From Giardia intestinalis (lineage: Eukaryota): a DNA stretch of 64,000 nucleotides. Made by a program: the position numbers and the translations under genes. Under the pieces are notes generated by a model. It ran no database searches. It saw only the letters and a program-made list of their open reading frames with translations, and was not told the DNA's origin. The DNA is taken from NCBI GenBank assembly GCA_000002435.2, contig CM018790.1; one strand, 5' to 3'. Shown in pieces: positions 1 through 50,144 of the stretch; positions within the stretch are counted from its first letter, which is position 1; each line of letters begins with the position of its first letter.

Positions 1-4
1 TGCC

Positions 5-20945: not shown

Positions 20946-20951
20946 TCCATA

Positions 20952-26576: not shown

Positions 26577-26825
26577 ATGGCCGACGGCGATGACCACACA
26601 GCCAGCTCCCCAGCAGTAGCCCCCGCCATCCCACAATTCACTCGTAAGAAGCTCCACAGGCGGTTGGATGACGTGCTAGGAAGAGATGCCACAGATACAG
26701 TCTACTCTCTCAAGGGTTATCCAGACCTCGCTGTGAAGGAGATCCCTCTCGACGGCCTGGACAAGGGTAACATGGACGCCATCAGAATAAGATTGACCGG
26801 GGTGAGGCTGTCGCCTGCCACCTGA
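26577..26825 (+). pseudogene. Truncated 5' fragment (about 75 aa) of a NEK kinase paralog. It retains its initiator region.
   Basis: MADGDDHTASSPAVAPAIPQFT...VYSLKGYPDLAVKEIPLDGLDKGNMDAIRIRL aligns to the N-terminus of the NEK at 56924 (MADGDDHAASSQTSAPAIPQFT...VYSLEGYPNLAVKEILLDGLGKSNVDAIKLEL). The upstream context gaaacaaactTcATGgc is also shared. The frame ends at 26825 with no kinase core following. Confidence 0.6.
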
Positions 26826-27389: not shown

Positions 27390-30300
27390 GCCCCGGACCA
27401 GTGGGTGCCGCTGGGGCCTGCCTGGAAGTATGATCCAAAGATCTCACAGGTAAGCCTCGCTCAGTCCCTGGCCAGCCCGGAGGCGGGGGCTGGCCACGGG
27501 TCGCAGTGATAGCCACAGTGGTGATAGGGAAGAGCTCCCTCCGTTTGTGGATCTGGGGCCTGTGCGTTCCTCGGCTGTTCTGCGGATGTGCACAGCTGGA
27601 CTTGAGGCGAAGGAGAGCCCGCGAGGACCAGATCCGTATTACGAACGCAAGATCATACCTTTGGGCCCCAGAGAGCAAGCCGTGAGTCTCTACTCGGAGG
27701 ACCACTTCGAAGACGCTTGCCCTCTCGGCAGGACACACACGCTGGCTCTGTGGCCTGCCGTGCGAGAGCGCCAAGCAACCAACCGAGCACCTGAGAGAAG
27801 CAAACGATGACAGACACAGAGTGCTGGGCGACGACAAGCTGATCCTTCCGGCCCACATACCGAACCAGACAGCTGCCATGCTCATCCACCAGGGTGCGCG
27901 CATGATCGCGAGCATCGAGCAGGCCGGGACTGGGGTCGCGCTCCCCGCAATCAGGGGCCTAGACGCCCTGGTGGGAAGCTGCCAGAGGGCCCCTCTGCCA
28001 GACAACACCACGGAGCAGTCCCAGAGCAAGGCAGACCCAGACCCCGAGAAGGCGAGGCGCCGGATAGCAAACAGGGTGAACAACGCGCTGAGCTTTAATA
28101 GCTGCCAGGTCCTCTGTTCCTTGACACACCCACGATAGACAAGCCAGAGAAGGCCAAGGCCCCCTCAGCGCGCTACACCCGTGCGTCCCCCCGAAGGCTG
28201 CGTTGGCCTTGACTACCCTCCATCGATGAACTCGACAGGGCTGGAGTGGCAACCGAGGAGGAAATGAGGAAGGCCCTGTTTGGAACTCTCAACAAGAAGG
28301 CCTCGGGCGTGTCTGGTCTCGGGCCGGTCCAGCTCAGGCGATGAAGCAGAACGACAGCTTTGTGAAATACCTCACGCAGGCGTACAACGAGCTGACCACT
28401 CACCCCGAGGCGATACCCGAGGTGACGACCATGTTCGAGTTCCGGGCGATCCTCATCCCGAAGGAGTCCGACGGATACCCCCGATCGCGATAGGCGGACG
28501 GTCACGAACACCTTCCACCGCGTCCTGCTGAAGGGCTGATCAGGCATGCCAACTACCTCTCATGCGAGCAGATCGCCTTCAAGCAGAACGCATACGCGGT
28601 AGGCGTGAGGAGGGCCCACGAGCTCATCAGCGGGCGGGGATGCACGCCGTCTCCCTCGACACAAAGAACGCCCTCAACTCGCTCCCGAGGGCAGAGGTCG
28701 TCAGAGCCCTGAACGAGGCGGGCGTCCCGAAGGTCCTGGTCGACTACATCAGGAACTTCCTCGACCTGAGGCACAGCAAGGACGTGAAGTGCGAGGTCTG
28801 CGGCGTCCCCCAGGGCGACCCGCTCAGCACGTTCCTCTTCTGCATGGCCACCGAGCGCCTCCTGAGACGCCTCGAGGAGAGGGGCATCGCCTTCCTTGCC
28901 TATGCAGACGACATCGTGGGGTTCCACGACGAAGGGTACCCAGCAGGTGTGATAACACAGCAGACCATGGACCTGACGATCAGGAGCGACAAATGCAAGT
29001 CCACCATGGCGGGCGAGGAGGTGACCTTCCTCAACCACCCGGCGTCCCCCACTCCTGCTAGTCTCGCCCCAAAGGCCATCGCAGGTGCCGAGACTGCCTT
29101 GAAGAAGATCGAGAATGCCCCAATAACCATCCACCAGAAGCTCATCCTGGTGTCACTCTGTGTGGTCCCGATGGTGAGCTACGCCCCCCTGGTCGAAGTA
29201 ACATCGGACAAGGCGGACTACGAGGAGTTCGACAGACGTCGCACAAGGCATCAGCACTAACCAACAGAAGCTGCGATCGCCTGGTCGACTTCCTAGCGTA
29301 CCCGAAGGAGAAGGGCGGCCTGGACCTGCTCATGCCTGGATTCTACCACGACGAGCTGCGGAGGGTATGGGCCTCCTTGGACGTCAACAAGGGGGCCAGA
29401 GACCCGGTGGAGCTGTCGGTGGGCGGCCAGGCACTGCAGGGGAAGGGGCCTACTTCAACCGCCTCCTCACGCGCACACACCAGCTTCCGGACAGAGCGGC
29501 GACGTACTGTCTGCAGATGTGCGGCGTGCTGACCGAGGAGGAAAGGGCCCTGAAGGAGAAGGGCGGCTCGATCATGGCGCAGAAAGAGGCACCTGCCCGG
29601 GCTGCCACGAGGCACGACATGATCGTCGCGTGCCTGTACCTCCGCGTCTCGGGGAAGCTCAGCGCAGAGCTGGAAGTCAAGACCCACAGCCACCTCAGCG
29701 ACCAGAACCAGAAGCCCGACATCTGGCTCGTCGACAAGTGCAAGGCAGTGGACGTGGGTGTCATCCAGCCCCGCCAGATGGATACCACAGCGAGAAGGCC
29801 AAGAAGTACAGGGACGGGACGCTCCCGATCATCTACGGGACGGACGGATCCCTCCACCCCAGTCCAAGGGGCACCTCAAGGAGCTCCACGTGGACCTCTG
29901 TCCGGGCTGCCTTCGCCATCGCCCACATGGCTGCAGAGGCGAACGAGCACCTGACGGGGCTGATCAGACGGGCCGGGCCGAAAGCCTGGCCACCCAGAGC
30001 GACCGTCTCCTGTCATCCTACTTCTGACAACCGAATGAGTCCATCCCCGGGACCTGTCGACAACGACCGAGAAGGGGCGCAAGACTGGACACACAACCGA
30101 GTTGAATCCCAACCAGAAGAGAAAGCCCCGCTAGCTGCTGCTGATATACATGGACAGTATTGAGAATGACAACAAAGACCAGAGCTTCACCAACCGTAAA
30201 GGGAGAACAAGGAGAGGCACCCTAGTAGACCAGCGAGCCTGCAGGACGGCGTGATCTCCAAAAGGATCTATGTGCACTCTTAGACCGAGCACACACCCGC

Positions 30301-30460
30301 AGAACACCCGAGGAACGCAGATAGCTCCTCCCTTCCACCACTGTGGTCTTTATATTGATACACGACCAACCCTCGTCTCCGGACATCACCAAAAATTGAG
30401 CGGGAATTTACCAGTAAGATCTCTGGACAGCGCCCGCAGGCAGGCCCCAGCGGCACACCA
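27390..30460 (+). mobile_element. Copy A of a ~3.1-kb degenerate non-LTR (R2-clade, restriction-like-endonuclease type) retrotransposon-like element, consistent with the 'dead' GilD family of Giardia. The RT/CCHC/RLE coding region is broken by shared frameshifts and stops. It has a 25-bp terminal inverted repeat.
   Basis: RT motifs are split across frames: FRAILIPKESDGYPRSR* ; FHRVLLKG* ; HAVSLDTKNALNS ; GVPQGDPLSTFLF ; FLAYADDIV. The downstream frame carries RHDMIVACL...KPDIWLVDKCKAVDVGV (RLE-like). 5' TIR at 27401-27424 and 3' TIR at 30436-30460 (caggcaggccccagcggcacaccac). Confidence 0.8.
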
Positions 30461-30537
30461 CACACTCAGTATACCTCTTTGGCAAAAGTATTCTTAATGA
30501 TATCATTGGTGTTAAGACCGATTGCTCCGGAAATTCC

Positions 30538-34957: not shown

Positions 34958-35306
34958 TTTTATTTTCTCTCCTGGCCAAGTGCAATTTTCATTTTCTCTC
35001 CTGGCCAAGTGCATAAGACCGCAATTATTTCGTAATTTACACTACCCAAGCTACGATGCACTACAGCTATATGGCATAGGCTCCTGCATATTTTCTGTTG
35101 CATGCCGTAATGGTGTAGTGTGCAGTACTACACTACTCCGGGCTGTTACCGACCAGAGCTCGCCGAGTAGACCAGTCGTCTGAGGCAGAGGCGGACACTT
35201 ATGTAGGGACCGAGGGCCTTCTGCTCTACAGATGGATGGCTATGAGACGCGGCATATCGCCTGCTCGTTGGTAGGGGCTTCTCGACGGCAGGGAACGCTG
35301 CTTTCA

Positions 35307-38300
35307 GTGGTGTGCCGCTGGGGCCTGCCTGCGGGCGCTGTCCAGAGATCTTACTGGTAAATTCCCGCTCAATTTTTGGTGATGTCCGGAGACGAGGGTT
35401 GGTCGTGTATCAATATAAAGACCACAGTGGTGGAAGGGAGGAGCTATCTGCGTTCCTCGGGTGTTCTGCGGGTGTGTGCTCGGTCTAAGAGTGCACATAG
35501 ATCCTTTTGGAGATCACGCCGTCCTGCAGGCTCGCTGGTCTACTAGGGTGCCTCTCCTTGTTCTCCCTTTACGGTTGGTGAAGCTCTGGTCTTTGTTGTC
35601 ATTCTCAATGCTGTCCATACAGATCGGCAGCAGCTAGCGGGGCTTTCTCTTCTGGTTGGGATTCAACTCGGTTGTGTGTCCAGTCTTTGCCCCTTCTCGG
35701 TCGTTGTCGTCGGGTCCCAGGGATGGACTCATTCGGTTGTCAGAAGTAGGATGACAGGAGGCGGGGTGACCAGGCTTTCGGCCCGGCCCGTCTGATCAGC
35801 CCCGTCAGGTCCTCGTTCGCCTCTGCAGCCATGTAGGCGATGGCGAAGGCAGCCCGGACAGAGGTCCACGTGGAGCTCCTTGAGGTGCCCCTTGGACTGG
35901 GGTGGAGGGATCCGTCCGTCCCGTAGATGATCGGGAGCGTCCCGTCCCTGTACTTCTTGGCCTTCTCGCTGTGGTATCCATCTGGCGGGGCTGGATGACA
36001 CCCACGTCCACTGCCTTGCACTTGTCGACGAGCCAGATGTCGGGCTTCTGGTTCTGGTCGCTGAGGTGGCTGTGGGTCTTGACTTCCAGCTCTGCGCTGA
36101 GCTTCCCCGAGACGCGGAGGTACAGGCACGCGACGATCATGTCGTGCCTCGTGGCAGCCCGGGCAGGTGCCTCTTTCTGCGCCATGATCGAGCCGCCCTT
36201 CTCCTTCAGGGCCCTTTCCTCCTCGGTCAGCACGCCGCACATCTGCAGACAGTACGTCGCCGCTCTGTCCGGAAGCTGGTGTGTGCGCGTGAGGAGGCGG
36301 TTGAAGTAGGCCCCTTCCCCTGCAGTGCCTGGCCGCCCACCGACAGCTCCACCGGGTCTCTGGCCCCCTTGTTGACGTCCAAGGAGGCCCATACCCTCCG
36401 CAGCTCGTCGTGGTAGAATCCAGGCATGAGCAGGTCCAGGCCGCCCTTCTCCTTCGGGTACGCTAGGAAGTCGACCAGGCGATCGCAGCTTCTGTTGGTT
36501 AGTGCTGATGCCTTGTGCGACGTCTGTCGAACTCCTCGTAGTCCGCCTTGTCCGATGTTACTTCGACCAGGGGGGCGTAGCTCACCATCGGGACCACACA
36601 GAGTGACACCAGGATGAGCTTCTGGTGGATGGTTATTGGGGCATTCTCGATCTTCTTCAAGGCAGTCTCGGCACCTGCGATGGCCTTTGGGGCGAGACTA
36701 GCAGGAGTGGGGGACGCCGGGTGGTTGAGGAAGGTCACCTCCTCGCCCGCCATGGTGGACTTGCATTTGTCGCTCCTGATCGTCAGGTCCATGGTCTGCT
36801 GTGTTATCACACCTGCTGGGTACCCTTCGTCGTGGAACCCCACGATGTCGTCTGCATAGGCAAGGAAGGCGATGCCCCTCTCCTCGAGGCGTCTCAGGAG
36901 GCGCTCGGTGGCCATGCAGAAGAGGAACGTGCTGAGCGGGTCGCCCTGGGGGACGCCGCAGACCTCGCACTTCACGTCCTTGCTGTGCCTCAGGTCGAGG
37001 AAGTTCCTGATGTAGTCGACCAGGACCTTCGGGACGCCCGCCTCGTTCAGGGCTCTGACGACCTCTGCCCTCGGGAGCGAGTTGAGGGCGTTCTTTGTGT
37101 CGAGGGAGACGGCGTGCATCCCCGCCCGCTGATGAGCTCGTGGGCCCTCCTCACGCCTACCGCGTATGCGTTCTGCTTGAAGGCGATCTGCTCGCATGAG
37201 AGGTAGTTGGCATGCCTGATCAGCCCTTCAGCAGGACGCGGTGGAAGATGTTCGTGACCGTCCGCCTATCGCGATCGGGGGTATCCGTCGGACTCCTTCG
37301 GGATGAGGATCGCCCGGAACTCGAACATGGTCGTCACCTCGGGTATCGCCTCGGGGTGAGTGGTCAGCTCGTTGTACGCCTGCGTGAGGTATTTCACAAA
37401 GCTGTCGTTCTGCTTCATCGCCTGAGCTGGACCGGCCCGAGACCAGACACGCCCGAGGCCTTCTTGTTGAGAGTTCCAAACAGGGCCTTCCTCATTTCCT
37501 CCTCGGTTGCCACTCCAGCCCTGTCGAGTTCATCGATGGAGGGTAGTCAAGGCCAACGCAGCCTTCGGGGGGACGCACGGGTGTAGCGCGCTGAGGGGGC
37601 CTTGGCCTTCTCTGGCTTGTCTATCGTGGGTGTGTCAAGGAACAGAGGACCTGGCAGCCATTAAAGCTCAGCGCGTTGTTCACCCTGTTTGCTATCCGGC
37701 GCCTCGCCTTCTCGGGGTCTGGGTCTGCCTTGCTCTGGGACTGCTCCGTGGTGTTGTCTGGCAGAGGGGCCCTCTGGCAGCTTCCCACCAGGGCGTCTAG
37801 GCCCCTGATTGCGGGGAGCGCGACCCCAGTCCCGGCCTGCTCGATGCTCGCGATCATGCGCGCACCCTGGTGGATGAGCATGGCAGCTGTCTGGTTCGGT
37901 ATGTGGGCCGGAAGGATCAGCTTGTCGTCGCCCAGCACTCTGTGTCTGTCATCGTTTGCTTCTCTCAGGTGCTCGGTTGGTTGCTTGGCGCTCTCGCACG
38001 GCAGGCCACAGAGCCAGCGTGTGTGTCCTGCCGAGAGGGCAAGCGTCTTCGAAGTGGTCCTCCGAGTAGAGACTCACGGCTTGCTCTCTGGGGCCCAAAG
38101 GTATGATCTTGCGTTCGTAATACGGATCTGGTCCTCGCGGGCTCTCCTTCGCCTCAAGTCCAGCTGTGCACATCCGCAGAACAGCCGAGGAACGCACAGG
38201 CCCCAGATCCACAAACGGAGGGAGCTCTTCCCTATCACCACTGTGGCTATCACTGCGACCCGTGGCCAGCCCCCGCCTCCGGGCTGGCCAGGGACTGAGC

Positions 38301-38408
38301 GAGGCTTACCTGTGAGATCTTTGGATCATACTTCCAGGCAGGCCCCAGCGGCACACCACTGGAAGCAACCGGTGGGTGGAGTAAAGAAACTGGTAGAATA
38401 ATCCGAAG
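35307..38408 (-). mobile_element. Copy B of the same degenerate retroelement, inverted orientation.
   Basis: The ORF set is the reverse complement of copy A (the same MRADRLQAERIRG... RT fragment at 36499-37197, minus strand). TIRs at 35307-35331 and 38335-38359. About 32 bp of shared 5' leader extends to about 38408. Confidence 0.8.
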
Positions 38409-38676
38409 TGCGGATTGCATTTAGAAGGATTGCCGCCCGCACCTCGTGCTTCTGAGACCACAGATAAGCAAGGACTGTTCTCTGCGGTGGCTTAAAAAGC
38501 CTATCTATCATATCAGAGGGCAGCTCGCCATACCTCGTGATGAACAGCGGAAGGACCTTGTCCCTTTGGTCTGCCGGATACCTTGATCCCAGTGCTACGG
38601 CTCCCTGAAAATCTACGAGGTTAAGCGCATTGTAGAGACTCTCTGCCAGCTCGCCTATGGGGGTCAGAACAGGCAT
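38409..38676 (-). pseudogene. Alpha-giardin (annexin homolog) N-terminal fragment of about 90 aa, truncated by element copy B. The track ORF 38326-38676 reads on into element sequence.
   Basis: MPVLTPIGELAESLYNALNLVDFQGAVALGSRYPADQRDKVLPLFITRYGELPSDMIDRLFKPPQRTVLAYLWSQKHEVRAAILLNAIR aligns with alpha-1 giardin (MPKVTDIANELKQAIDAKDEVQIAFIASEYSAESREKIAKAYVASYGKELPDDIKKALKGGSEESLLMDLFSDRHEVRAQHIRDAL) and with the neighbouring alpha-giardin. It is followed directly by the element's terminal sequence. Confidence 0.6.
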
Positions 38677-38727
38677 TGACGGACAGTGAAAAGCCGATTA
38701 TTAATTCACACCTGTTAAATGCACGCT

Positions 38728-39632
38728 TTAGTTTGCGCCTTCGGTGTCAACACGCCAAAGTGCACAAAGAGCTCGCCCGAGACGGGCGTCGTAGAGGCGC
38801 TTAAAGTCTGAGCCGAGCTTGCCGTACTTTTCATACGCAAACTTACACTTTAATGCCTTGTCGAACATAAGAGAGGTGATGCGAACCATCCGGTCACTAT
38901 CGCCCTTTTTGCCAGAGTTGGCGAGGGAGCATAGGTAGGCAGCGGCATAGCCGGGCTGTAGCAGGTAGAAGTGGGCGGTAAGCAGGGCCTCCATGTCTGT
39001 CTTCACGTAGTTGGACGCAATAAGGGTCTCCACCTCGACGCCGTACTTCTCTGTGAACACCTTATTTATCTTTTTCCACTCTCCCTCTGTGGTGTTGCAC
39101 AGGAGATCGATCAGGCCATCGGGGTTGCCAGATTCCAAGTAGCCCATGAGCGCCGCGGCATCCTCACTAATAGCCTTGCGCTCGTATCTGTCGTGTTTGA
39201 TCCACCCCTTGATGAGTTGCGACCACGGCTCAGAGCTGCCGATATCACTGAGCAGGGTGTCGTTGGCCACTTTCTGAAATATGCGCGTGTAGTGTGCTCC
39301 CATCTCGTACCAGTCTTCTGGGCCGCAAAAGAGGACGACGTCTATCAGTGCAGACTTGTTGTTCTTGCCACTGAGGGCCTGGTTGAGTAGGCGTGCACGC
39401 ACCTCCTGTGCATCTGTCCACGCATACATCAGAAGCGTTTCAGCAGGCCCTGACTTTAGAGCTTTCTTGATTGCATCAGCAGGGTACATCCCATAGATGG
39501 ACTTGTAGTTGATTACGACTTGTCTCGGTGCTTCGACGCATACTGCGAGGTCAACTGGACAAGAGCGGACTCGTTTTTGCTATCTATAATCTCCCTCAGC
39601 TCCGTGGTGAGGTCGGATACAGTGAGGGACAT
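38728..39632 (-). CDS. Alpha-giardin (annexin homolog), about 300 aa. The N-terminal ~40 codons (ATG at 39632) are in a different frame from the main 253-aa ORF (ATG at 39489), which implies a 1-bp frameshift near 39520-39527.
   Basis: Main [40 protein letters not shown]...[19 protein letters not shown] aligns to alpha-1 giardin DDIKKALKGGSEESLLMDLFSDRHEVRAQHIRDALSG...CTPEDWHETVAAYTRMFKK. Upstream in frame +1: [39 protein letters not shown] aligns to alpha-1 residues 1-37. The main frame extended upstream gives ...[15 protein letters not shown], matching alpha-1 KAYVASYGKELP. Confidence 0.75.
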
Positions 39633-39831
39633 CAGGTCTAGAGTGAATTTTTGACTGTTTCACTTTGATTTAATGAAAAGGGTTCACAAAAGGATTTTAA
39701 AGCGGGCGTTATGAGCGCGAAAGTCGTAAGTATCTGTGTACAGGTCGGAAAGGTGAACACAGGTTACGATCAGAAAGCGTCGCTCCGTTGCTTCGCTGCT
39801 CCGCCGCCCATATCTTACGGTGTGCACAGAA

Positions 39832-40083
39832 TCAAATTATTGCCAGGAGAAGGTCTAGATTGCGTTGGCTTTCTTTCTCAGTGGGGGCTGTGCCTCGTAG
39901 CTCCTGGCCCGGGGTCAAGGCTGTCTCTATGACGCTGTCGAAGCAGATGTGGTCTTCTAGGCACCATAAGTAATCTTCGTGCACAAACAGGTCCTCCCCG
40001 GCCGGAGAGGCGCTGCTTGGGAGCAAAATGTGCGGCTGATATGTTGTGCCAGCCATGATTGGTTTGTAATTCTCCGTCCACAT
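39832..40083 (-). CDS. Small hypothetical ORF of 83 aa with an AT-rich initiator. Low confidence.
   Basis: True ATG at 40083 preceded by aaaaactaATG. No recognisable homology. Confidence 0.3.
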   Translation of the reverse strand: MWTENYKPIMAGTTYQPHILLPSSASPAGEDLFVHEDYLWCLEDHICFDSVIETALTPGQELRGTAPTEKESQRNLDLLLAII

Positions 40084-40552
40084 TAGTTTTTATGTCATTA
40101 CTTTTTACTTTTGCATAAAGCAGCAGCTTATTGCAGCATCAGTAGTCTTGCGCCAATTACATACTAGATTATAGCGTGCTTTTTCATACGTTAGGCATAC
40201 TTTTGGGCTGCAAGTTAATTGCTGGGCTTAAAGGTTGACAATGCCAATTTGTGCACCAGATCAGATTGTACTGTGTTCTTGCTTGACAACTGGTCTAATT
40301 GTGACTCAAGCAGGGCGTGCCTTATTGCTTCAATCCGTGGATTTATATTCTTGAATTCATAAAGAGATTCCCTGCACCACAATGCCACACATGAATAGTT
40401 GTAACCAGGCAGTGTCGACCCTATCCAACCCCATCGTTGGCAGTTACCAGTTCAGCAGACTCTTGTGGCTGCTTAGCTTCAAAATTTACAGAGTCTAACA
40501 GCAATATGGATGCTCAGGGTTTGTGTTCAACTATCAAAACAGCGCTAACCCT

Positions 40553-43045
40553 TCAGAGTAGCGTTGCATTTAATGTCCTGGCCATTACGGAGTCGGTGAT
40601 CACGGCCTGTTGCGCATTGGGGTTACGAGAGAGCGCATCTTTTCGAACAGCGGTCTTCGCTAGTTCATAAGCAAATAGCACGCTACGGATCGTGATAGGA
40701 ATACGTCGCTTTTGCCTCTCCAAAAAGAGCTTGTATACAGCATACGCCTCATACTCGACGGGATTGGGTTGGAGATAGTATCTCACGCTAACTTGGTGGG
40801 CAGCGTTTCGCTTTTCCTCTAGATCGAGGGCAACAGTGGCGTATTCACAGAGCGCGCAGAGGGCTTGGTCGGGGGTGAGGGATGGAATGTTGCAAACCTG
40901 ATTGAAAACGCCTGCAAACCCAACGTCGCTCATTGCTTTCAAGTGCGTAGTAGTGCCGAGGACAACGAGTCGGTGATCAGGCTGGGTTGGTCTACGAATA
41001 AGAGCAGTGAGGGTCTGAAGGACAGTACTGGAGAATCGGAAGCCAATGGGCGTATACTGTATGATGGACTCTATGCCATCCAGAATTATTAGAGCGCGCG
41101 GGACCCTGTAGGCTGCCTCAAAGATTTGACATATAAGGTCCGCACGTCCATACTCTGTCGAAGTCCTCATAACAAGCTGCTCTGCAGAGATAATTCGAAC
41201 AAACTCACATCCAAGCCTCTTCGCAATAACAGAGCATAGAGCTGTACAACCAGTTCCAGTTGCAGGCGCTGCAAGCAGCATAGCGCCGGTGGTAATACTG
41301 CTGTTTAGGACAGCCTCTCCAAAAGACACAGCCTGCTGGACGACAGACTCGTAGCCGGTAGCCTTGAGGATACCTAGAGGCGCTGCAGCATCTAGCAGCG
41401 TGCGGTCTGCCTGGCCGTATCCTGCTTTAACCTCCCCCAGGGCCCTTTCAAAATCCTTTGCCTCCACTTGGACGCCAATCATGTCCAAATAGAGTAACTT
41501 GTTAGGACCCACCGACTTTGTTTTCTCAATAGCACGCTCCATGGCAAAGGATGTAGCAGACCTAACAAGACCTGCCAGTTCAGCGCCAGAGAAATTAGGA
41601 GTGCACTCAGCGAGGTGTGCGATATTGACATCGCTTGCAAGAGACTTGGCAGCAACCAGGTTTTTAGTGTGGATCCTCAGAATCTGCTCTCTTCCTCTGC
41701 AGTCGGGAAGACCAATCTCCAGGTGCACTTCAAAGCGGCCGGGACGCATCAGAGCCTCGTCCAGAAGCTCTTTCCTGTTGGTCATACCAACCACGAGCAC
41801 GTTACCAAGCGCGTCGGGCCCGTCCATCATCGCAAGTAGCTGGTTAACCAGGCTGTCCATTGTTCCAGTGTTGTCCGACTTGCTGCCTCGTTGCTTGCAT
41901 ACTGCATCAAGCTCGTCGATAATGATTATGTGGAGCTCGGATGCATTCTCGCGCTCTTTCCACTCCTTAAACGCGTCGCTGAACAGATCGCGCACCTTCT
42001 GCTCCGACCCACCAATGTACTTATCTAGAAGCTCTGAACCGGAAACCATCTTTGGAGGCCGCGCGTTCAGCAACTCGCCAATCTTCCTGGCTGTCAACGT
42101 TTTTCCTGTTCCAGGTGGTCCGTACAAAAGGAGACCCTTGACGTGTGTCTGGCCAAGCTTTGCTAACTTGTCCGGTGGAAATATTCGTGACATGAACGCG
42201 CGCCTAAATATGTCCTTAAACTGCTTATTAAGGCCCCCTATTCCTAAGCTTTCTGCGTTGATTATGCCCCCCTGCTCATTCTTCTCAGACGTGTCGCTGA
42301 TGAGATTCATCAGCGCCTTAGCCACCGCAGAGACTTCTGCGATTGCGTACTCCCCGGTGAGCTCTATTTCCTTTATTTGAGTCTGGAAGATTGTTGCAGT
42401 ATCGGTACAGAAAGTAAGCGTGGTCTCGTCGCTCACTATCTCCCTGTTGTCGCCAAACATGCCAACAACCATCAAGATGAAGAAGTCAGAACCGTCACTA
42501 ATGGCAAGGTCCTGACCGATAGCGAGAGGGAGGTGGACAAATTTCTCTGTAATACGGGCGTTGAGATTTGCCGTGCTTATGGTTACCGGCTTTTGTTGTT
42601 TAACCATTGGCTTGATCATGAATACCACAGCGATGGCCCTGGCAGTAGCGTCAAACTTGGACCGTGACACAGTGATGGGAGTATTGTCCAAAGGCGCCCA
42701 CTTTGTCTCATGAAACGGTGATAGGAGGATCACACCCTGAGGAACCTTGGGCACGGGGTCATGGTGGGCTGTAGCTGATCCGATGTCCTTTCCTGGTCTC
42801 ACTAGGACGACGTGGCCGTTCCTCTCAAGGTAGACGTTATCAGACTTCTCGTTGCCAAGAACTGCAGCATAGTCACTAGGACATAAGTATGCACAGTTGG
42901 TCTCGAGCAAAGAGGTGCTAGGGTACTTACCGGGTTTATTAGGGTACTTACCGGCTTTGTAGCTGAATCCCTCCCCAGACATTTGACAACCCTGTTTTTT
43001 AATAAGTTCGTTAGTAAAATTGGACAAAGGTGTGGAATGGAACAT
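40553..43045 (-). CDS. NSF: N-ethylmaleimide-sensitive factor (NSF), AAA+ ATPase with N, D1 and D2 domains, 830 aa. An alternative start ATG at 42982 is preceded by ttaaaaaacagggttgtcaaATG.
   Basis: D1: GIGGLNKQFKDIFRRAFMSRIFPP...VKGLLLYGPPGTGKTLTARKIGELLNARPPKMVSGSELLDKYIGGSEQKVRDLF...IIIIDELDAVCKQRG...GMTNRKELLDEALMRPGRFEVHLEIGLPD matches NSF D1 almost motif-for-motif. A degenerate D2 P-loop follows. Confidence 0.85.
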   Translation of the reverse strand: MFHSTPLSNFTNELIKKQGCQMSGEGFSYKAGKYPNKPGKYPSTSLLETNCAYLCPSDYAAVLGNEKSDNVYLERNGHVVLVRPGKDIGSATAHHDPVPKVPQGVILLSPFHETKWAPLDNTPITVSRSKFDATARAIAVVFMIKPMVKQQKPVTISTANLNARITEKFVHLPLAIGQDLAISDGSDFFILMVVGMFGDNREIVSDETTLTFCTDTATIFQTQIKEIELTGEYAIAEVSAVAKALMNLISDTSEKNEQGGIINAESLGIGGLNKQFKDIFRRAFMSRIFPPDKLAKLGQTHVKGLLLYGPPGTGKTLTARKIGELLNARPPKMVSGSELLDKYIGGSEQKVRDLFSDAFKEWKERENASELHIIIIDELDAVCKQRGSKSDNTGTMDSLVNQLLAMMDGPDALGNVLVVGMTNRKELLDEALMRPGRFEVHLEIGLPDCRGREQILRIHTKNLVAAKSLASDVNIAHLAECTPNFSGAELAGLVRSATSFAMERAIEKTKSVGPNKLLYLDMIGVQVEAKDFERALGEVKAGYGQADRTLLDAAAPLGILKATGYESVVQQAVSFGEAVLNSSITTGAMLLAAPATGTGCTALCSVIAKRLGCEFVRIISAEQLVMRTSTEYGRADLICQIFEAAYRVPRALIILDGIESIIQYTPIGFRFSSTVLQTLTALIRRPTQPDHRLVVLGTTTHLKAMSDVGFAGVFNQVCNIPSLTPDQALCALCEYATVALDLEEKRNAAHQVSVRYYLQPNPVEYEAYAVYKLFLERQKRRIPITIRSVLFAYELAKTAVRKDALSRNPNAQQAVITDSVMARTLNATLL

Positions 43046-46000
43046 CTATCCATCAGGTTCCGTGGTGTTTGCGCAGACACCACGGAAGCACCCATACCCA
43101 CCAACAAGATTAAGACCCGGAAGTACAATTGGATTGTTTTTCCCTTTGTTGCTGTCCTCAAACAGTTCCGGCTTTTCTTCAACCAGTTTTTCTTGGTTCT
43201 AGCCTTTCTCCAGCTCTATCGCCCTCTTCAAGTTGGCCTCGCCTTTACATACTACCTTCCTCTATGTTTCATTGTCCTAGTCAGTGTTGGGCGCGAATTG
43301 TATGATGAGCTGAATCGAGCAAGACGTGACAAGTCAGTCAATAGTGGCAAGTACAATATCATTGGCCCCTATGGACTCGTTCCTACTAAGTCCGAAGACA
43401 TTAAGGTTGGAAGCATCGTGCTTCTAGAGCCAAATCAGAGGGTTCCCGCGGACATCGTTATCCTCCAAGCCGTGGGTCATTTGTATGTCAAGACAGTCAA
43501 TCTGGATGGGGAAACAGATCTAAAGGTCAAGATGCCTTTGCTTGGTACTGTCGATAGCCCAGAAACACTGGCAGCACCGGACCTGCTCTCTGCAATCCTT
43601 GATTCCATCCACGTTACCTATGCCAAGCCATCGGATAATCTCTATCACTTTTCCGGGGCTCTTCAAAACGCACAAACTGACGTTGTAATTGGACCCATTA
43701 CAGTTTCTAATGCAATCTGGATGAATTGCAGTCTTGCGCGCGGATACGCAACGGGATTGGTTGTCTACACAGGGAAGAGCACACGCATTATGCAGAACCT
43801 TGGACGGCGACGGGTTAAACAAGGGTCTCTCGATGTTGAGCTGAACATGTTTGTCAAGGGCATGTTCATTTTCTGTCTGCTCCTGTCAGCGCTGGTTACA
43901 TTTGCCACCACAACCAGAAGTATTATCGTCTTTGTTCGTTGGATCATAATCCTCAGCTCGATTATTCCGTTGGCCATGCAGGTTTCCTATAACTTCGGCA
44001 AGCTCGTCATGGCCGGAAGTATTAAGCGGGACGACACCATAAGTGGGATTGAGGTCAGATCAACCGATCTAGCTGAAGAGCTGGGCCGCATTAGCCATGT
44101 CTTCAGCGACAAAACAGGGACTCTGACACGGAACGAGATGTGGCTCCATGAGGTTGTTGGAGAAAAAAGCCCAGCTTGTCTGTCCACGTATTTGATAATT
44201 ACGCTAGCGAATTGCAGCGCATCGTCCTCTTTGCAATCATGACATGTCACAACGTCGAGTTGTTCCGCGAGGATCAGGATTCACCAGAGCAAGATACCGC
44301 CCTCAGGCCAAGAAGGAGGAGGCAGCCAAGGACTTGCTCAGCAAGCACTAGTCAATCATCTGAACAGAGAGTGTCTCAGGAGCCAACTAGCTTTCTCGAC
44401 GCAAGCATCTCTGAGGCCATCGGGCTCGAAGATCGATCTCAGCCTGTGCAGACGCTCTCACTTTCCGATTCACCAACAGAATTGCTCTTTACGCGCCGCG
44501 AGATTGACGAAAATCTGATCCTTAATCGATATATTGGCTCATCTCCCGACGAGGTTGCAATAATAAGAAGCATGCATGCGCGGGGCTATATACTGGAAGA
44601 AAAGTCACATAATCTTGTACGCTACACTGCTAGTACAGGATCTCAAAAGTTTGAGCTTCTTCATACCTTTCCATTTACATCAGAGACCAAGCGCATGTCT
44701 GTCGTCACTCACCACATTGCTACCGGAACCACGTTTATTTTCGTTAAGGGAGCAGACACAACTATTGAGGCGTCTGCCAAGTACTGTCCATGGCTTCGAA
44801 ACACCGTCGATGCTTTGGCAGGGCTGGGGCGGAGGACCCTCGTGTATGCGTACCGCACGCTCGACGATGACGACCTTAGTAATTTTCATTCATCCATTAC
44901 TGCTGCGTCTGCAGATCTGGCAAACCGAGATTCCATACTCGTGAAATGCGAAGAGACTCTGCTGACAGGGGTGGAGGTCTTGTGTGTAACAGGAATCGAA
45001 GATCAGCTCCAGCTCAATGTGAAGGCAACGATCCAGGATCTGAAAAGAGCAGGAATTAAGTTCTGGATGTTGACCGGAGACAAGGTTGTGACATGTTTGA
45101 GCATAGCCCAGTCGTGCGGTTTGCTCCCAAATACAGCAGTCAAGAAGCATACCAGCAAGCTTCGTGCATCCGAGAATACCGCGCCTTTGACTACTCAGTC
45201 GCTGCATCCTGAGGCATGTAAGTATCCAACTACTCCATCTCTAGACGCTGTATCTATTCCTACAAGATCTGAGATAGAAGTGGGCCAAGAGGATAAGACA
45301 CCCATGGCAATTCTCCGCAGAGCCATTCGAGATGATCCCAATTCCTTCATGAGTGTCACCTCCAGAAGAGAAAAGCGGCTCAATAGAAAGAAACGCCCAG
45401 GGTCTCTTGTTTTAGCAAGCACGTGCTATGGGCGCTTGAGTGAGCATATCTACTTCTTGACAGAGGAGCTCACCCCTGTTGAAATAGTCTCCGTTCTGAA
45501 AGAGCTCTCTCAAATGGTTAGCTTCACACATGAGGTTACCATCGTCATAGACGGATCAGCGCTGGAGAAACTCCTCGGTAATTACCCCGTGGACTACTTC
45601 TACACACATGCAATCCATCCCATCACTGGGAACCTTCTTCCTCTGCACCCGTGTGTAAGGATCTGGAGGAGATTCACCCGCTGGTTACTTATCTACCTCA
45701 CAGGACACCCCAGACGCGGCAAGGGGAGCCTGGGACCAGATGCAGAGACGCGCGAGCTTTTTGCAAGTATTGCTAGCAAGGCAGAAACGGTCCTCTGCTG
45801 CCGCTGCACACCAACGCAGAAGGCCCTTGTTGCAGGTCTCATTTCGGTATACACAGGCAGCAAATCCCTAGGGATAGGCGACGGGGCAAATGACGTCCCC
45901 CTGATCGAAACTTGCTCTGTCGGCATAGGACTGCGGGGCAAGGAGGGCAACCAGGCGGCCAACGCAGCAGACTATGTGATGACAGAATTCCGAGGACTGA

Positions 46001-47061
46001 AGAAGCTTCTGCTATGGTATGGCAAGTGTAGCTACGTGGGTAGTGCACAGATATGCCAGTTTATCGTCCAGCGCGGGGTTGCGCTATGCTTGCTCCAGAT
46101 TTGTTTCACCTGCCTTTACTTTTTCACGTCTCTCGTTCTTCACACCGGGGTACTCCTCTTGGGATACGTGACGCTATTCACAATGTTTCCACCGTTCAAC
46201 TATTATATTAACGAAGATGTGGACTACCAATTAGTACTAAAATACCCAGAAATCTATCGGATTACGTCGCGTGGATCTATTCTGAACCTTAAGACATTTT
46301 TTCTCTGGACATTTAGTGGCTTTATTATAGCAGTGGTAGTGTTTCTTCTCGCATATATCTTCTCGTCGTTTCCCATTTCTGTCAGCGGATTTACGTTTTT
46401 CAGTTTCGCCATACTGCTGTGGAGCGAGCTCTGCCTGATCCTTGTGACTACCCATCGCTTTTCCCTTATGCTCCTCGTTGCCTTGCTTCTCAGCTACTTG
46501 ATGCTATTCTTGGTTGTTGCCATTTATCCAGGCTCCTTGACTCGTAGCGAAGTATTTTCTCTAGATATGTTTTGGCGCTTATGCGTAACAAACGCAATAT
46601 CGGCTGTACTGCTTTTTGTCGGTGAACGCATCGTTCGCCGGTTCTCTAAGCCAAACGTGGTCCGTATTCTCAGATCAATGAGAAAGCCAGTTTATTGTGC
46701 TACATGCAAAGTTCCACGGTGTTGCACGCGTGAGTCGCAACAGAATGTGGCTGTCATAGGCAAGCCTTCTTTCAACCAAGACCATCCTGGCCTATCTCGC
46801 AGCGTCTTACGAGATCGAAGTAAGCCCATGTATAGAGCAGGCTCTGGGATAAAAACGGAATCCGAATCTGGCTCGGGGTGGCCCTCTGGTATGGTAGTGA
46901 CGAGCAGATCCTACAGGCGACCCTCTTCATCGAGCTATGTCCGTCTGCGAGGCATTTACATTCTAAGCTCCACTGGGAGACACTTCTTCAATATGCCGGA
47001 GAGTGTTTTCAACATCCTCACACTCAGGATGTGTCGTCGTTGCGTCAGAATAAATTCTTAG
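43037..47061 (+). CDS. P4-type P-type ATPase (phospholipid flippase-like). It is read as two track ORFs (42983-44242 and 44176-47061) separated by an apparent 1-bp frameshift in an A6 run at 44163-44168. The first ATG is at 43037.
   Basis: N-terminus NKIKTRKYNWIVFPFVAVLKQFRLFFNQFFL, the phosphorylation motif SDKTGTLTRNEM, then in the second frame ...LFAIMTCHNVE, MLTGDKVVTCLSIAQSCGLL and GIGDGANDVPLIETCSVGIGLRGKEGNQAANAADYV (P4-ATPase hinge signature). The frame-2 tail after ...VVGEK is junk (SPACLSTYLIITLANCSASSSLQS*). Confidence 0.8.
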
Positions 47062-47063
47062 AT

Positions 47064-50000
47064 TCGGATTTACTCCACCCACCGGTTGCTTCCAGTGGTG
47101 TGCCGCTGGGGCCTGCCTGGAAGTATGATCCAAAGATCTCACAGGTAAGCCTCGCTCAGTCCCTGGCCAGCCCGGAGGCGGGGGCTGGCCACGGGTCGCA
47201 GTGATAGCCACAGTGGTGATAGGGAAGAGCTCCCTCCGTTTGTGGATCTGGGGCCTGTGCGTTCCTCGGCTGTTCTGCGGATGTGCACAGCTGGACTTGA
47301 GGCGAAGGAGAGCCCGCGAGGACCAGATCCGTATTACGAACGCAAGATCATACCTTTGGGCCCCAGAGAGCAAGCCGTGAGTCTCTACTCGGAGGACCAC
47401 TTCGAAGACGCTTGCCCTCTCGGCAGGACACACACGCTGGCTCTGTGGCCTGCCGTGCGAGAGCGCCAAGCAACCAACCGAGCACCTGAGAGAAGCAAAC
47501 GATGACAGACACAGAGTGCTGGGCGACGACAAGCTGATCCTTCCGGCCCACATACCGAACCAGACAGCTGCCATGCTCATCCACCAGGGTGCGCGCATGA
47601 TCGCGAGCATCGAGCAGGCCGGGACTGGGGTCGCGCTCCCCGCAATCAGGGGCCTAGACGCCCTGGTGGGAAGCTGCCAGAGGGCCCCTCTGCCAGACAA
47701 CACCACGGAGCAGTCCCAGAGCAAGGCAGACCCAGACCCCGAGAAGGCGAGGCGCCGGATAGCAAACAGGGTGAACAACGCGCTGAGCTTTAATGGCTGC
47801 CAGGTCCTCTGTTCCTTGACACACCCACGATAGACAAGCCAGAGAAGGCCAAGGCCCCCTCAGCGCGCTACACCCGTGCGTCCCCCCGAAGGCTGCGTTG
47901 GCCTTGACTACCCTCCATCGATGAACTCGACAGGGCTGGAGTGGCAACCGAGGAGGAAATGAGGAAGGCCCTGTTTGGAACTCTCAACAAGAAGGCCTCG
48001 GGCGTGTCTGGTCTCGGGCCGGTCCAGCTCAGGCGATGAAGCAGAACGACAGCTTTGTGAAATACCTCACGCAGGCGTACAACGAGCTGACCACTCACCC
48101 CGAGGCGATACCCGAGGTGACGACCATGTTCGAGTTCCGGGCGATCCTCATCCCGAAGGAGTCCGACGGATACCCCCGATCGCGATAGGCGGACGGTCAC
48201 GAACATCTTCCACCGCGTCCTGCTGAAGGGCTGATCAGGCATGCCAACTACCTCTCATGCGAGCAGATCGCCTTCAAGCAGAACGCATACGCGGTAGGCG
48301 TGAGGAGGGCCCACGAGCTCATCAGCGGGCGGGGATGCACGCCGTCTCCCTCGACACAAAGAACGCCCTCAACTCGCTCCCGAGGGCAGAGGTCGTCAGA
48401 GCCCTGAACGAGGCGGGCGTCCCGAAGGTCCTGGTCGACTACATCAGGAACTTCCTCGACCTGAGGCACAGCAAGGACGTGAAGTGCGAGGTCTGCGGCG
48501 TCCCCCAGGGCGACCCGCTCAGCACGTTCCTCTTCTGCATGGCCACCGAGCGCCTCCTGAGACGCCTCGAGGAGAGGGGCATCGCCTTCCTTGCCTATGC
48601 AGACGACATCGTGGGGTTCCACGACGAAGGGTACCCAGCAGGTGTGATAACACAGCAGACCATGGACCTGACGATCAGGAGCGACAAATGCAAGTCCACC
48701 ATGGCGGGCGAGGAGGTGACCTTCCTCAACCACCCGGCGTCCCCCACTCCTGCTAGTCTCGCCCCAAAGGCCATCGCAGGTGCCGAGACTGCCTTGAAGA
48801 AGATCGAGAATGCCCCAATAACCATCCACCAGAAGCTCATCCTGGTGTCACTCTGTGTGGTCCCGATGGTGAGCTACGCCCCCCTGGTCGAAGTAACATC
48901 GGACAAGGCGGACTACGAGGAGTTCGACAGACGTCGCACAAGGCATCAGCACTAACCAACAGAAGCTGCGATCGCCTGGTCGACTTCCTAGCGTACCCGA
49001 AGGAGAAGGGCGGCCTGGACCTGCTCATGCCTGGATTCTACCACGACGAGCTGCGGAGGGTATGGGCCTCCTTGGACGTCAACAAGGGGGCCAGAGACCC
49101 GGTGGAGCTGTCGGTGGGCGGCCAGGCACTGCAGGGGAAGGGGCCTACTTCAACCGCCTCCTCACGCGCACACACCAGCTTCCGGACAGAGCGGCGACGT
49201 ACTGTCTGCAGATGTGCGGCGTGCTGACCGAGGAGGAAAGGGCCCTGAAGGAGAAGGGCGGCTCGATCATGGCGCAGAAAGAGGCACCTGCCCGGGCTGC
49301 CACGAGGCACGACATGATCGTCGCGTGCCTGTACCTCCGCGTCTCGGGGAAGCTCAGCGCAGAGCTGGAAGTCAAGACCCACAGCCACCTCAGCGACCAG
49401 AACCAGAAGCCCGACATCTGGCTCGTCGACAAGTGCAAGGCAGTGGACGTGGGTGTCATCCAGCCCCGCCAGATGGATACCACAGCGAGAAGGCCAAGAA
49501 GTACAGGGACGGGACGCTCCCGATCATCTACGGGACGGACGGATCCCTCCACCCCAGTCCAAGGGGCACCTCAAGGAGCTCCACGTGGACCTCTGTCCGG
49601 GCTGCCTTCGCCATCGCCTACATGGCTGCAGAGGCGAACGAGGACCTGACGGGGCTGATCAGACGGGCCGGGCCGAAAGCCTGGTCACCCCGCCTCCTGT
49701 CATCCTACTTCTGACAACCGAATGAGTCCATCCCTGGGACCCGACGACAACGACCGAGAAGGGGCAAAGACTGGACACACAATCGAGTTGAATCCCAACC
49801 AGAAGAGAAAGCCCGCTAGCTGCTGCCGATCTGTATGGACAGCATTGAGAATGACAACAAAGACCAGAGCTTCACCAACCGTAAAGGGAGAACAAGGAGA
49901 GGCACCCTAGTAGACCAGCGAGCCTGCAGGACGGCGTGATCTCCAAAAGGACCGATGTGCACACCCAGTCTGAGTGTACTCCTGTAGAATAGCCGAGGAA

Positions 50001-50144
50001 CGCAATAGCTTCTCCCTACAACCGATGTGATTATCGTTACGGCCCGTGACCAACCCTCGTCTCCGGACATCGCCAAAAATTGAGCGGGAATTTACTCGCG
50101 AGATTTGCGGACAGCGCCCGCAGGCGAGGGCCCAGCGGCACACA
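47064..50144 (+). mobile_element. Copy C of the degenerate retroelement. It begins 2 bp after the stop codon of the P4-ATPase.
   Basis: Same ORF fragments as copy A (47516-47833, 47975-48226, 48257-48955 RT fragment, 49062-49649, ...). 5' TIR at 47095-47119. Degenerate 3' TIR at 50119-50144 (caggcgagggcccagcggcacacac). Confidence 0.8.

What the first reader, a model, noticed from the sequence alone, without database searches (positions are those of the whole stretch)
38326..38676. Tandem alpha-giardin gene truncated by retroelement copy B
The ORF at 38326-38676 begins as a clear alpha-giardin N-terminus (about 90 aa) and then reads straight into the element's terminal sequence (...TPPTGCFQWCAAGACLEV is translated from the TIR region). 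The intact paralog lies immediately upstream at 38728-39632. The insertion has therefore destroyed one member of a tandem alpha-giardin pair. No 3' remainder of the gene is visible on the far side of the element (35000-35300).
Basis: seen in the sequence. Interest (0 to 1): 0.5.

Follow-up and report, generated by a model that had tools for sequence, protein, structure and literature searches.

The report
Broken alpha-13 giardin gene copy
The short ORF is the first 95 codons of a spare, decaying copy of the Giardia alpha-13 giardin gene, cut off at a rearrangement junction beside a dead retroelement; a complete alpha-13 gene survives on another chromosome, so this is ordinary genome wear.

Summary
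The core observation holds. ORF 38326-38676 (-) is codons 1-95 of alpha-13 giardin (GL50803_1076). It then runs through a 5-nt filler into the end of a 3.1-kb reverse-transcriptase element (copy B).

Two points in the finding need correcting.
- The upstream "intact paralog" is alpha-9 giardin, and in this window it has a 1-nt frameshift.
- This is not a simple insertion into a working gene.

The window is Giardia intestinalis WB, on the 1.54-Mb chromosome. Bases 38391-47061 (alpha-13', alpha-9', NSF, flippase') form an 8.67-kb paralogous copy of a locus that, by protein accession and contig length, lies complete on the 1.97-Mb chromosome. That locus carries flippase, alpha-9, alpha-13, a coiled-coil gene and a RING gene.

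In the window copy the flippase and alpha-9 are frameshifted and alpha-13 is truncated. The block lies between inverted element copies B and C.
- The element is dead: it has no long ORF.
- B is a mosaic of C and A.
- There is no target-site duplication.
- No alpha-13 remainder lies anywhere in the 64 kb.

Short-read contigs from many isolates show two-copy variation that stops near the breakpoint.

My reading is that DNA-level break repair or recombination among dead element copies left a pseudogene relic. Interest is low.

The parts
38391..38676 (-). Alpha-13 giardin 5' fragment: codons 1-95 plus 1 nt, with its native 51-nt upstream spacer at 38677-38727.
   Evidence: 100% aa identity to residues 1-95 of the 345-aa protein of L001/L004. 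That protein's cluster is named alpha-13 giardin, KAE8302583.1. Nucleotide homology ends at 38391 in all 22 Logan contigs compared.
38326..38676 (-). Chimeric 116-aa ORF: 95 alpha-13 codons plus 21 codons read from the filler and the element end.
   Evidence: The exact protein is not on record in the protein or gene collections.
38386..38390 (-). 5-nt filler GTTTC between the gene breakpoint and the sequence shared by B and C.
   Evidence: Junction alignment.
38368..38385 (-). 18 nt, TTTACTCCACCCACCGGT, lying outside the inverted repeat. It is shared only by the 5' ends of B, C and the DH ortholog of C.
35299..38367 (-). Element copy B: a degenerate reverse-transcriptase element, bounded here by its terminal inverted repeats. 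It is a mosaic: identical to C over the 5' 2746 nt (35640-38385) and matching A, not C, at every variable site over the last ~200 nt (35307-35501).
   Evidence: Repeat families, three-way variant table, terminal inverted repeat 35299-35331 / 38335-38367 at 97%.
36499..37197 (-). Longest ORF left in B (232 aa), carrying an RVT_1 domain.
   Evidence: Pfam PF00078, E=4.1e-16. Homologs are only partial Giardia reverse transcriptases at 73-97% identity.
38728..39632 (-). Alpha-9 giardin copy with a 1-nt deletion at 39520 (frameshifted pseudogene).
   Evidence: After correcting the frameshift it is 99% identical to the alpha-9 cluster. The 253-aa ORF is seen on 28 Logan contigs.
40553..43045 (-). 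NSF (vesicle-fusing ATPase), the only intact gene of the block.
   Evidence: Exact match to XP_001703953.1; the cluster holds KAE8302554.1. It differs by 1.15% from the NSF of DH contig X and by 6.8% from that of DH contig Y.
43037..47061 (+). Phospholipid flippase copy split by a 1-nt deletion near 44162.
   Evidence: The 401-aa and 940-aa halves equal XP_001703952.1 and XP_001703950.1. Indel located. The intact 1341-aa paralog is KAE8302579.1.
38391..47061 (.). 8,671-bp paralogous block (locus I copy). Its homology to the complete locus II ends at these two coordinates.
   Evidence: Left end. Right end. Divergence profile.
47062..47068 (+). 7-nt filler ATTCGGA between the flippase stop codon and element C.
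   Evidence: The same junction occurs in isolate DH.
47069..50150 (+). Element copy C, inverted relative to B. Its 5' 2746 nt are 100% identical to B; its last ~370 nt differ by about 15% from A and B.
   Evidence: The orthologous copy in DH contig L027 is at 14088-17173.
27398..30461 (+). Element copy A. Its 3' end abuts a 5'-truncated ankyrin gene copy that starts at 30466.
   Evidence: Residues 256-953 of the 953-aa KAE8305396.1 match 30466-32559 at 97.7%.

Best explanation
The ORF is a pseudogene relic: the first 95 codons of alpha-13 giardin at the left edge of a second, decaying copy (locus I) of the flippase / NSF / alpha-9 / alpha-13 neighbourhood of G. intestinalis WB. The complete locus II, with intact alpha-9, alpha-13, coiled-coil and RING genes, is on another chromosome, so the genome has not lost alpha-13.

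The junction was most likely made at the DNA level rather than by retrotransposition. I infer that a break in or beside the locus-I alpha-13 was repaired by joining, through 5 filler bases, to sequence copied from the 5' end of the nearby resident element C. The repair was then resolved by homologous recombination into an A-type element next to the ankyrin genes. This produced the chimeric copy B and discarded or replaced the rest of alpha-13 and whatever lay beyond it.

Shown: the identity of the fragment, the exact homology boundaries, the frameshifts, the mosaic structure of B, the lack of a target-site duplication, and the presence of the full gene in related loci.

Inferred: the repair mechanism, its timing (probably in sub-assemblage AI after the split from AII), and the chromosome assignment of locus II, which rests on accession numbers and contig lengths.
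For: - The window is WB. There are exact protein matches to KAE8302546, 548, 549, 550, 551 and 556 and to XP_001703953.1, all on a 1,539,535-bp sequence.
- The intact flippase KAE8302579, alpha-9 ..582, alpha-13 ..583, coiled-coil ..584 and RING ..585 are on a 1,973,847-bp sequence.
- Homology between the window and every complete locus ends at 38391 and at 47061.
- Nothing of alpha-13 residues 96-345, the coiled-coil gene or the RING gene is in the window.
- Alpha-9' and the flippase each carry a 1-nt deletion. Both are seen independently: the 2007 annotation split the flippase in two, and 28 Logan contigs carry the 253-aa alpha-9 ORF.
- The element has only short ORFs, and its relatives are all partial.
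- B equals C over 2746 nt and matches A, not C, at every variable site over its last ~200 nt. There is no target-site duplication.
- The C junction is old and shared with isolate DH, whereas the DH contig runs on into a full alpha-13.
- The 1 kb next to the junction differs from locus II by 0.1%, against 2.8-10% further in. This fits recent copying.
- AI short-read contigs differ at 6-8 sites per 1350 nt upstream of the breakpoint and at 0 of 6500 nt downstream. This is a two-copy signature that ends near 38391.
- The WB genome paper reports 6.9% duplicated sequence, with blocks up to 20 kb, and reverse-transcriptase remnants between duplicated VSP genes (PMC7000408).
Against: - I could not read the WB 1.97-Mb chromosome, so locus II in the same genome is inferred from accessions and from Logan contigs that carry the WB-exact proteins.
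- No independent read or contig spanning the alpha-13/element junction was recovered. Logan contigs run through 38391 without breaking, which a two-copy genome does not obviously predict.
- The DH contig may have been threaded through a collapsed alpha-9/alpha-13 repeat. The other DH contig ends at 39580, so the 'empty site' in AII is not secure.
- Both block ends abut the same sequence, TTTACTCC.... That coincidence fits better with the block having been placed between pre-existing inverted arms.
Confidence: 0.62

Rival explanations
1. The fragment is the original edge of the duplication. An 8.67-kb copy of locus II, running from alpha-13 codon 95 to the flippase stop codon, was placed between two pre-existing head-to-head inverted element arms (B and C), for example by repair of a break at a palindrome centre. 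Alpha-13 was never complete at this locus.
For: - Both ends of the block abut the same sequence, TTTACTCCACCCACCGGTTGCTT..., in inverted orientation, each through a short filler of 5 or 7 nt.
- The B and C arms are 100% identical over 2746 nt.
- The right junction is old and shared with DH.
- DH contig Y ends inside alpha-9. That is compatible with a collapsed repeat and a chimeric contig X.
Against: - DH contig X is continuous from the locus-I-type NSF (1.15% from the window, against 6.8% for the other paralog) through the full alpha-13 into the coiled-coil gene.
- The 3' end of B is A-type, not C-type. A simple symmetric palindrome does not predict this.
- The junction-proximal 1 kb is almost identical to locus II while NSF is 4-10% diverged, so the edge looks younger than the duplication.
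Confidence: 0.25
2. Element B, or its 5' part, retrotransposed into the locus-I alpha-13. The 3' remainder was then lost through a large target deletion or through later exchange with an A-type element.
For: - The element carries a reverse-transcriptase domain.
- The gene abuts the 5' end of what may be a full-length copy, and a few untemplated bases at 5' junctions are typical of non-LTR insertions (the latter point is from general knowledge).
- The mosaic structure of B fits a later inter-element exchange.
Against: - No copy has an intact ORF, and B shares every defect with C, so autonomous retrotransposition is excluded.
- There is no target-site duplication and no A-rich tail at the 3' end of B.
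- The junction lies 18-23 nt outside the consensus terminal inverted repeat.
- No remainder lies next to copies A or C.
Confidence: 0.1
3. The junction is a chimeric join made by the long-read assembly and does not exist in the organism.
For: - No independent contig with the junction was found.
- Logan contigs run through 38391 into the full alpha-13.
Against: - The join is not inside a repeat. It falls to the base at the same element end as the independently confirmed C junction.
- It coincides with the end of two-copy variation in many Illumina assemblies.
- The window-type alpha-9' and alpha-13' variants, including the frameshift, occur in Illumina contigs; L004 is 100% identical over 1742 nt.
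- The authors report validating the assembly with optical maps and split-read checks (PMC7000408).
Confidence: 0.03

Closest known systems
Alpha-13 giardin, GL50803_1076 (KAE8302583.1 / XP_001704288.1; annexin-like alpha-giardin family)
   Same: Residues 1-95 are identical apart from V68I against the WB reference protein, and 100% identical to Logan variant P0028. The fragment has the same 51-nt spacer after alpha-9 and the same tandem order, alpha-9 then alpha-13.
   Different: Only 95 of 345 codons remain. It lacks annexin repeats 2-4, including the PF22293 fourth repeat, and ends in 21 codons of unrelated sequence.
The 'dead' Giardia non-LTR retrotransposon family: GilD (Arkhipova and Morrison 2001), also called Genie 2 (Burke et al. 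2002). Both names are recalled from memory; the papers were not readable here.
   Same: Giardia-specific reverse-transcriptase element of about 3 kb. It has only degenerate ORFs and terminal inverted repeats that are near-perfect for 33 nt and traceable to about 190 nt.
   Different: I could not compare it with a published consensus. The three copies here are 99.9-100% identical over 2.6-2.7 kb despite being dead. That points to DNA-level copying or gene conversion rather than the old, independently decayed copies that the name suggests.
Segmental duplications of the WB reference genome (Xu et al. 2020, PMC7000408)
   Same: A multi-gene duplicated block under 20 kb in a gene-family-rich, VSP- and rDNA-proximal region, with reverse-transcriptase remnants next to duplicated genes.
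   Different: The text passages of that paper that I searched (I did not read its tables or supplements) do not mention this block, its exact boundaries or the alpha-13 fragment. The 116-aa ORF is not in any protein set searched.
Transposon-associated rearrangements in other eukaryotes: ectopic recombination between dispersed repeats, and repeat capture during break repair (general knowledge)
   Same: Gene fragments end at repeat copies, a repeat copy is chimeric, junctions carry short fillers, and there is no target-site duplication.
   Different: Nothing here shows the process itself. It is inferred from the end product in one genome.

Membership tests
Alpha-giardin (annexin E1-like), specifically alpha-13 | Sequence identity to the alpha-13 giardin N-terminus | tested here: met
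   95/95 residues match the 345-aa protein of L001/L004, whose cluster is named alpha-13 giardin. Residues 7-100 match alpha-1 giardin 4evf at E=2.3e-7.
Alpha-giardin (annexin E1-like), specifically alpha-13 | Complete four-repeat annexin fold, including the fourth repeat (PF22293), and a full-length ORF | tested here: not met
   No Pfam hit for the 116-aa ORF. Residues 96-345 are absent from the window. It is therefore a gene fragment, not a family member in the functional sense.
De novo non-LTR retrotransposon insertion into the gene | Both halves of the target flank the element, usually with a target-site duplication or a small deletion | tested here: not met
   The far side is upstream DNA of an ankyrin gene. 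There is no remainder and no duplication.
De novo non-LTR retrotransposon insertion into the gene | A source element able to encode its own reverse transcriptase (intact ORF) | tested here: not met
   The longest sense ORF is 232 aa. A, B and C share the same defects. All database relatives are partial.
De novo non-LTR retrotransposon insertion into the gene | 3' end with a poly(A) or simple-repeat tail at the target nick | tested here: inconclusive
   B ends ...GGCACACCAC followed by TGAAAGC. C ends ...CACACTAAAAAAC. There is no consistent tail.
GilD / Genie 2 dead retroelement family | Reverse-transcriptase domain, only degenerate copies, terminal inverted repeats | tested here: met
   RVT_1 at E=4e-16, partial homologs only, inverted repeats. 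That these features define the family is my recollection.
GilD / Genie 2 dead retroelement family | Sequence match to the published consensus | not testable with these tools
   The describing papers and a consensus were not available.
Segmental (paralogous) duplication | A second copy of the same multi-gene block elsewhere in the same genome | tested here: met
   WB accessions for the intact flippase, alpha-9 and alpha-13 are recorded on a 1,973,847-bp sequence, while the window proteins are on a 1,539,535-bp sequence. This is indirect, because the other chromosome's DNA could not be read.
Segmental (paralogous) duplication | Discrete homology boundaries and measurable divergence between the copies | tested here: met
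   Boundaries at 38391 and 47061. Divergence is 0.1% to about 10% along the block.

The most novel reading that the evidence does not exclude
Elements B and C with the 8.7-kb block form a large inverted-repeat structure whose arms are kept identical by gene conversion. The 1 kb next to the alpha-13 junction would have been copied very recently from the paralogous locus on another chromosome. The junction would then be a lineage-specific (sub-assemblage AI) scar of ongoing inter-chromosomal repair and recombination among subtelomeric paralogs, using dead retroelement copies as homology. Recombination in this organism is still debated.
Probability: 0.3. Interest if true: 0.35.

Novelty: new member of a known kind. 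Interest (0 to 1): 0.17.

Why it matters
- For annotation, the 116-aa ORF should be labelled an alpha-13 giardin pseudogene fragment. The neighbouring alpha-9 and flippase copies should be labelled frameshifted pseudogenes. None of these should count as functional giardins.
- For Giardia genomics, the locus is a cleanly bounded example of a multi-gene duplicate decaying in a subtelomeric region, with dead retroelement copies at the block edges and signs of gene conversion.
- The junction string could serve as a structural marker to separate AI from AII isolates if it proves to be lineage-specific.
- It does not change what is known about giardin function or retroelement biology.

Tried and rejected
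- A word-indexed protein search with the 98-aa fragment found nothing. The family was identified through PDB sequences and through the neighbouring gene instead.
- Exact look-ups of the 116-aa ORF and of the antisense 241-aa ORF that crosses the junction were not on record. No independent junction contig was obtained.
- Look-up of the annotated 809-aa NSF failed, and no contig longer than 50 kb came back for any WB protein looked up. I therefore could not fetch either WB chromosome, and locus II could only be studied through Logan and DH contigs.
- I looked for the alpha-13 remainder beside copies A and C, to test for an inversion between inverted elements. None was found.
- I looked for target-site duplications at A, B and C. 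None was found.
- The 'SFF' that aligns with alpha-1 giardin after residue 95 is chance. The true gene continues MIDLIF.
- The papers describing the Giardia retroelements were not held, and a search for 'Genie 2' returned nothing. The family name therefore rests on memory.
- Searching for the SRA run numbers in papers gave nothing.
- No telomere repeats occur in the window.
- I first read the block as a dispersed duplicate inserted between elements. The DH contig, collinear with the window through element C and beyond, showed that the window locus is an old paralogous locus with its own NSF paralog.

Full report
**1. The observation**

The minus-strand ORF 38326..38676 (116 aa) is present. Pfam gives no hit for it. 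A sequence search of PDB chains aligns residues 7-100 with alpha-1 giardin 4evf at E=2.3e-7.

The upstream gene, once one frameshift is corrected, matches alpha-1, alpha-11 and alpha-14 giardins. It belongs to a cluster that the sources name alpha-9 giardin, GL50803_103437.

One detail is not. Gene 38728-39632 has a 1-nt deletion at 39520 relative to every intact ortholog, so only a 253-aa ORF from 39489 remains. This is not a long-read error, because the same 253-aa product is called on 28 short-read (Logan) contigs.

**2. What the fragment is**

Contigs that carry alpha-9 in other read sets (L001, L004-L023) show a 345-aa gene with a PF22293 domain immediately downstream. A 1737-aa coiled-coil gene and a RING-finger gene follow it. 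The sources name the 345-aa protein alpha-13 giardin: KAE8302583.1, XP_001704288.1, DHA2_1076.

The window ORF equals its residues 1-95 exactly. It differs from the WB reference protein only by V68I. Nucleotide homology between the window and all 22 Logan contigs compared ends at window 38391.

Beyond that point the contigs continue TGATAGATCTG... (alpha-13 codon 96 onward). The window continues GTTTC and then TTTACTCCACCCACCGGTTGCTTCCAGTGG..., which is the end of element copy B.

No part of alpha-13 residues 96-345, the coiled-coil gene or the RING gene occurs anywhere in the 64 kb. This was checked by tblastn and by shared 16-mers.

**3. Where the window comes from**

Exact protein look-ups place the window in G. 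intestinalis WB (ATCC 50803), on a 1,539,535-bp sequence. The matches are:
- adenylate kinase KAE8302546;
- dynein heavy chain ..548;
- NEK ..549;
- GL50803_00113673 ..550;
- an ankyrin protein ..551;
- NEK ..556;
- NSF, which equals XP_001703953.1 and shares a cluster with KAE8302554.

The complete flippase (KAE8302579, 1341 aa), alpha-9 (..582), alpha-13 (..583), coiled-coil (..584) and RING (..585) are recorded on a 1,973,847-bp sequence. WB therefore has two copies of this neighbourhood. That they lie on different chromosomes of the same assembly is inferred from accession numbers and contig lengths. I could not fetch that DNA.

**4. The paralogous block**

Contigs carrying the WB-exact intact flippase (L028, L029, L032), a related contig (L024) and DH contig Y (L026) match the window only up to 47061, the last base of the flippase stop codon. 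They then continue with a 235-aa gene, a thioredoxin-domain (PDI-like) gene and a poly(A)-polymerase-like gene. The window continues ATTCGGA and then element copy C.

The window thus holds an 8,671-bp copy (38391-47061) of the locus, which I call locus I.
- Its flippase is split by a 1-nt deletion near 44162. The two halves are exactly the two proteins of the 2007 annotation, XP_001703952.1 and XP_001703950.1.
- Its alpha-9 is frameshifted and its alpha-13 is truncated.
- Only NSF is intact.

Divergence from locus II is uneven:

| Window region | Divergence from locus II |
|---|---|
| 38391-39390 | 0.1% |
| 39391-40132 | 2.8% |
| NSF | 4-10% |
| Flippase | 1-2% |

The uneven pattern suggests an old duplication that later gene conversion has overwritten in patches, most recently next to the junction. 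This is an inference from the pattern, not something shown directly.

**5.

Contig AHGT01000103 of isolate DH (sub-assemblage AII), fetched as L027, is collinear with the window from 38391 to 53635 at 95.2%. It runs through the block, through an orthologous element C with a base-identical 5' junction, and on toward the VSP gene.

Its NSF differs from the window's by 1.15%, whereas the other DH paralog differs by 6.8%. It is therefore the ortholog of the window locus. To the left of 38391 it carries a full alpha-13 (345 aa), an intact alpha-9 (301 aa) and the coiled-coil gene, with no element B. Taken at face value this is the empty site.

One caution applies. The second DH contig (L026) ends inside alpha-9 at 39580. 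The DH assembler may therefore have threaded contig X through a collapsed alpha-9/alpha-13 repeat.

**6. Independent support that the truncated copy is real and widespread in AI isolates**

L004 is 100% identical to the window over 40132-38391, frameshift included. Other contigs are block-wise mosaics of the window type and the reference type.

Compared with the reference-type contig L015, the mosaic contigs differ at 6-8 sites plus indels in the 1350 nt upstream of the breakpoint. They differ at 0 of 6500 nt downstream. The last variable site is 38475, 84 nt from the breakpoint. This is what two collapsed copies ending near 38391 would give.

It does not explain why those contigs run through the breakpoint without breaking. 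That point remains open.

**7. The element**

Three copies lie in the window: A 27398-30461 (+), B about 35299-38385 (-) and C 47069-50150 (+).
- The longest sense ORF is 232 aa, with an RVT_1 domain at E=4e-16. No other ORF has a Pfam hit.
- All database relatives are partial Giardia reverse transcriptases at 73-97% identity.
- The ends form an inverted repeat, 33 nt at 97% and traceable to about 190 nt. A further copy in DH (L025) shows the same ends.
- These features fit the dead Giardia family that I recall as GilD / Genie 2. I could not check the papers.

Copy B is a mosaic. It is identical to C from 38385 to 35640. In the last ~200 nt (35501-35307) it matches A at every variable site, while C differs there by about 15%.

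No copy has a target-site duplication. The 3' end of A abuts a 5'-truncated duplicate of a 953-aa ankyrin gene from another chromosome. A second element junction in the window is therefore also a gene-fragment boundary.

**8. Mechanism**

The element cannot have retrotransposed on its own, because its copies carry identical defects. The junction lies 18-23 nt outside the consensus inverted repeat. The far side of B is unrelated DNA, and B is chimeric.

I therefore favour a DNA-level event: break repair or ectopic recombination among element copies joined the locus-I alpha-13 to sequence copied from the 5' end of C, and resolved in an A-type element.

The main rival is that the 8.67-kb block was originally placed between pre-existing inverted arms, so that alpha-13 was never complete here. 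In its favour, both block ends meet the same sequence, TTTACTCC..., through fillers of 5 and 7 nt. Against it stand the DH contig and the A-type 3' end of B.

A true insertion followed by exchange, and an assembly artefact, are less likely. The reasons are set out under the rival explanations.

**9. Context and verdict**

The window is subtelomeric in character. It carries a VSP gene with 15 tandem 111-nt repeats, NEK and ankyrin family genes and a 5'-truncated 28S rRNA fragment at 59500-60597.

The WB genome paper reports that 6.9% of the assembly is duplicated, in blocks of up to 20 kb rich in gene families, and that reverse-transcriptase remnants lie between duplicated VSP genes (PMC7000408).

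The finding is a real but ordinary gene relic at the edge of such a duplicate. It is useful for annotation and possibly as a lineage marker. It is not a loss of alpha-13 and not evidence of active retrotransposition.

Noticed in passing
window 39520: Alpha-9 giardin copy carries a 1-nt deletion (GG to G) that truncates the frame after 38 codons. The same 253-aa downstream ORF is called on 28 short-read contigs, so the frameshift is real.
   Followed up: yes
window 44162 and 42919-42939: The flippase copy is split by a 1-nt deletion. The two halves equal two separate proteins of the 2007 WB annotation. A 21-nt indel relative to locus II lies in the N-terminal coding part of NSF.
   Followed up: partly
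window 30462-32562: The ankyrin gene right after element A is a 5'-truncated duplicate. Residues 256-953 of the 953-aa KAE8305396.1, recorded on a 4.0-Mb sequence, match from 30466, 5 nt after the element's 3' end.
   Followed up: partly
window 20946-25901: GL50803_00113673 (1649 aa) is a 5'-truncated duplicate of the 1906-aa GL50803_0060028 (residues 256-1906, 98.4% identity). The boundary sits directly at the stop codon of the neighbouring NEK gene, not at an element.
   Followed up: partly
window 26577-26795: A short NEK kinase N-terminal fragment (residues 1-73, 66% identical to the NEK at 56924) lies in the otherwise ORF-poor stretch upstream of element A. It is probably an old pseudogene.
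   Followed up: partly
window 40132 (start of most Logan contigs L004-L023): Most short-read contigs of this locus, from many runs, begin at exactly this base, although no repeat or structural difference is visible there in the window, L014, or the two DH contigs. This is unexplained. It may mark a further copy or a graph branch.
   Followed up: partly
window 38399-38406 and 47063-47070: The 8-mer TTCGGATT occurs in alpha-13 16 nt before the B junction and again across the filler/element boundary at the C junction. Deleting 16 nt from the B junction would recreate the C junction string. This could be chance (roughly 1 in 100 to 1 in 1000) or a trace of template switching.
   Followed up: partly
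window 49780-50150 versus L027 16800-17173: The last ~370 nt of element C are about 15% diverged from A and B. The orthologous element in isolate DH has an A/B-type 3' end. The 3' end of one of them has evidently been replaced, probably by gene conversion among element copies.
   Followed up: partly
window 54275-56134: The VSP gene (53518-56331, minus strand) contains 15 tandem copies of a 111-nt (37-aa) repeat at 94-100% identity.
   Followed up: no
window 59500-60597: A 5'-truncated 28S rRNA fragment (Rfam LSU model positions 1554-3401) starts inside or just after the end of the NEK ORF (56924-59881). About 67% G+C sequence follows to the window end. No telomere repeats are present.
   Followed up: partly
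window 1-1251: A 300-nt stretch is repeated exactly, 951 nt apart, inside the first ORF (5-2926, 973 aa, no Pfam hit). This suggests a large in-frame internal repeat.
   Followed up: no
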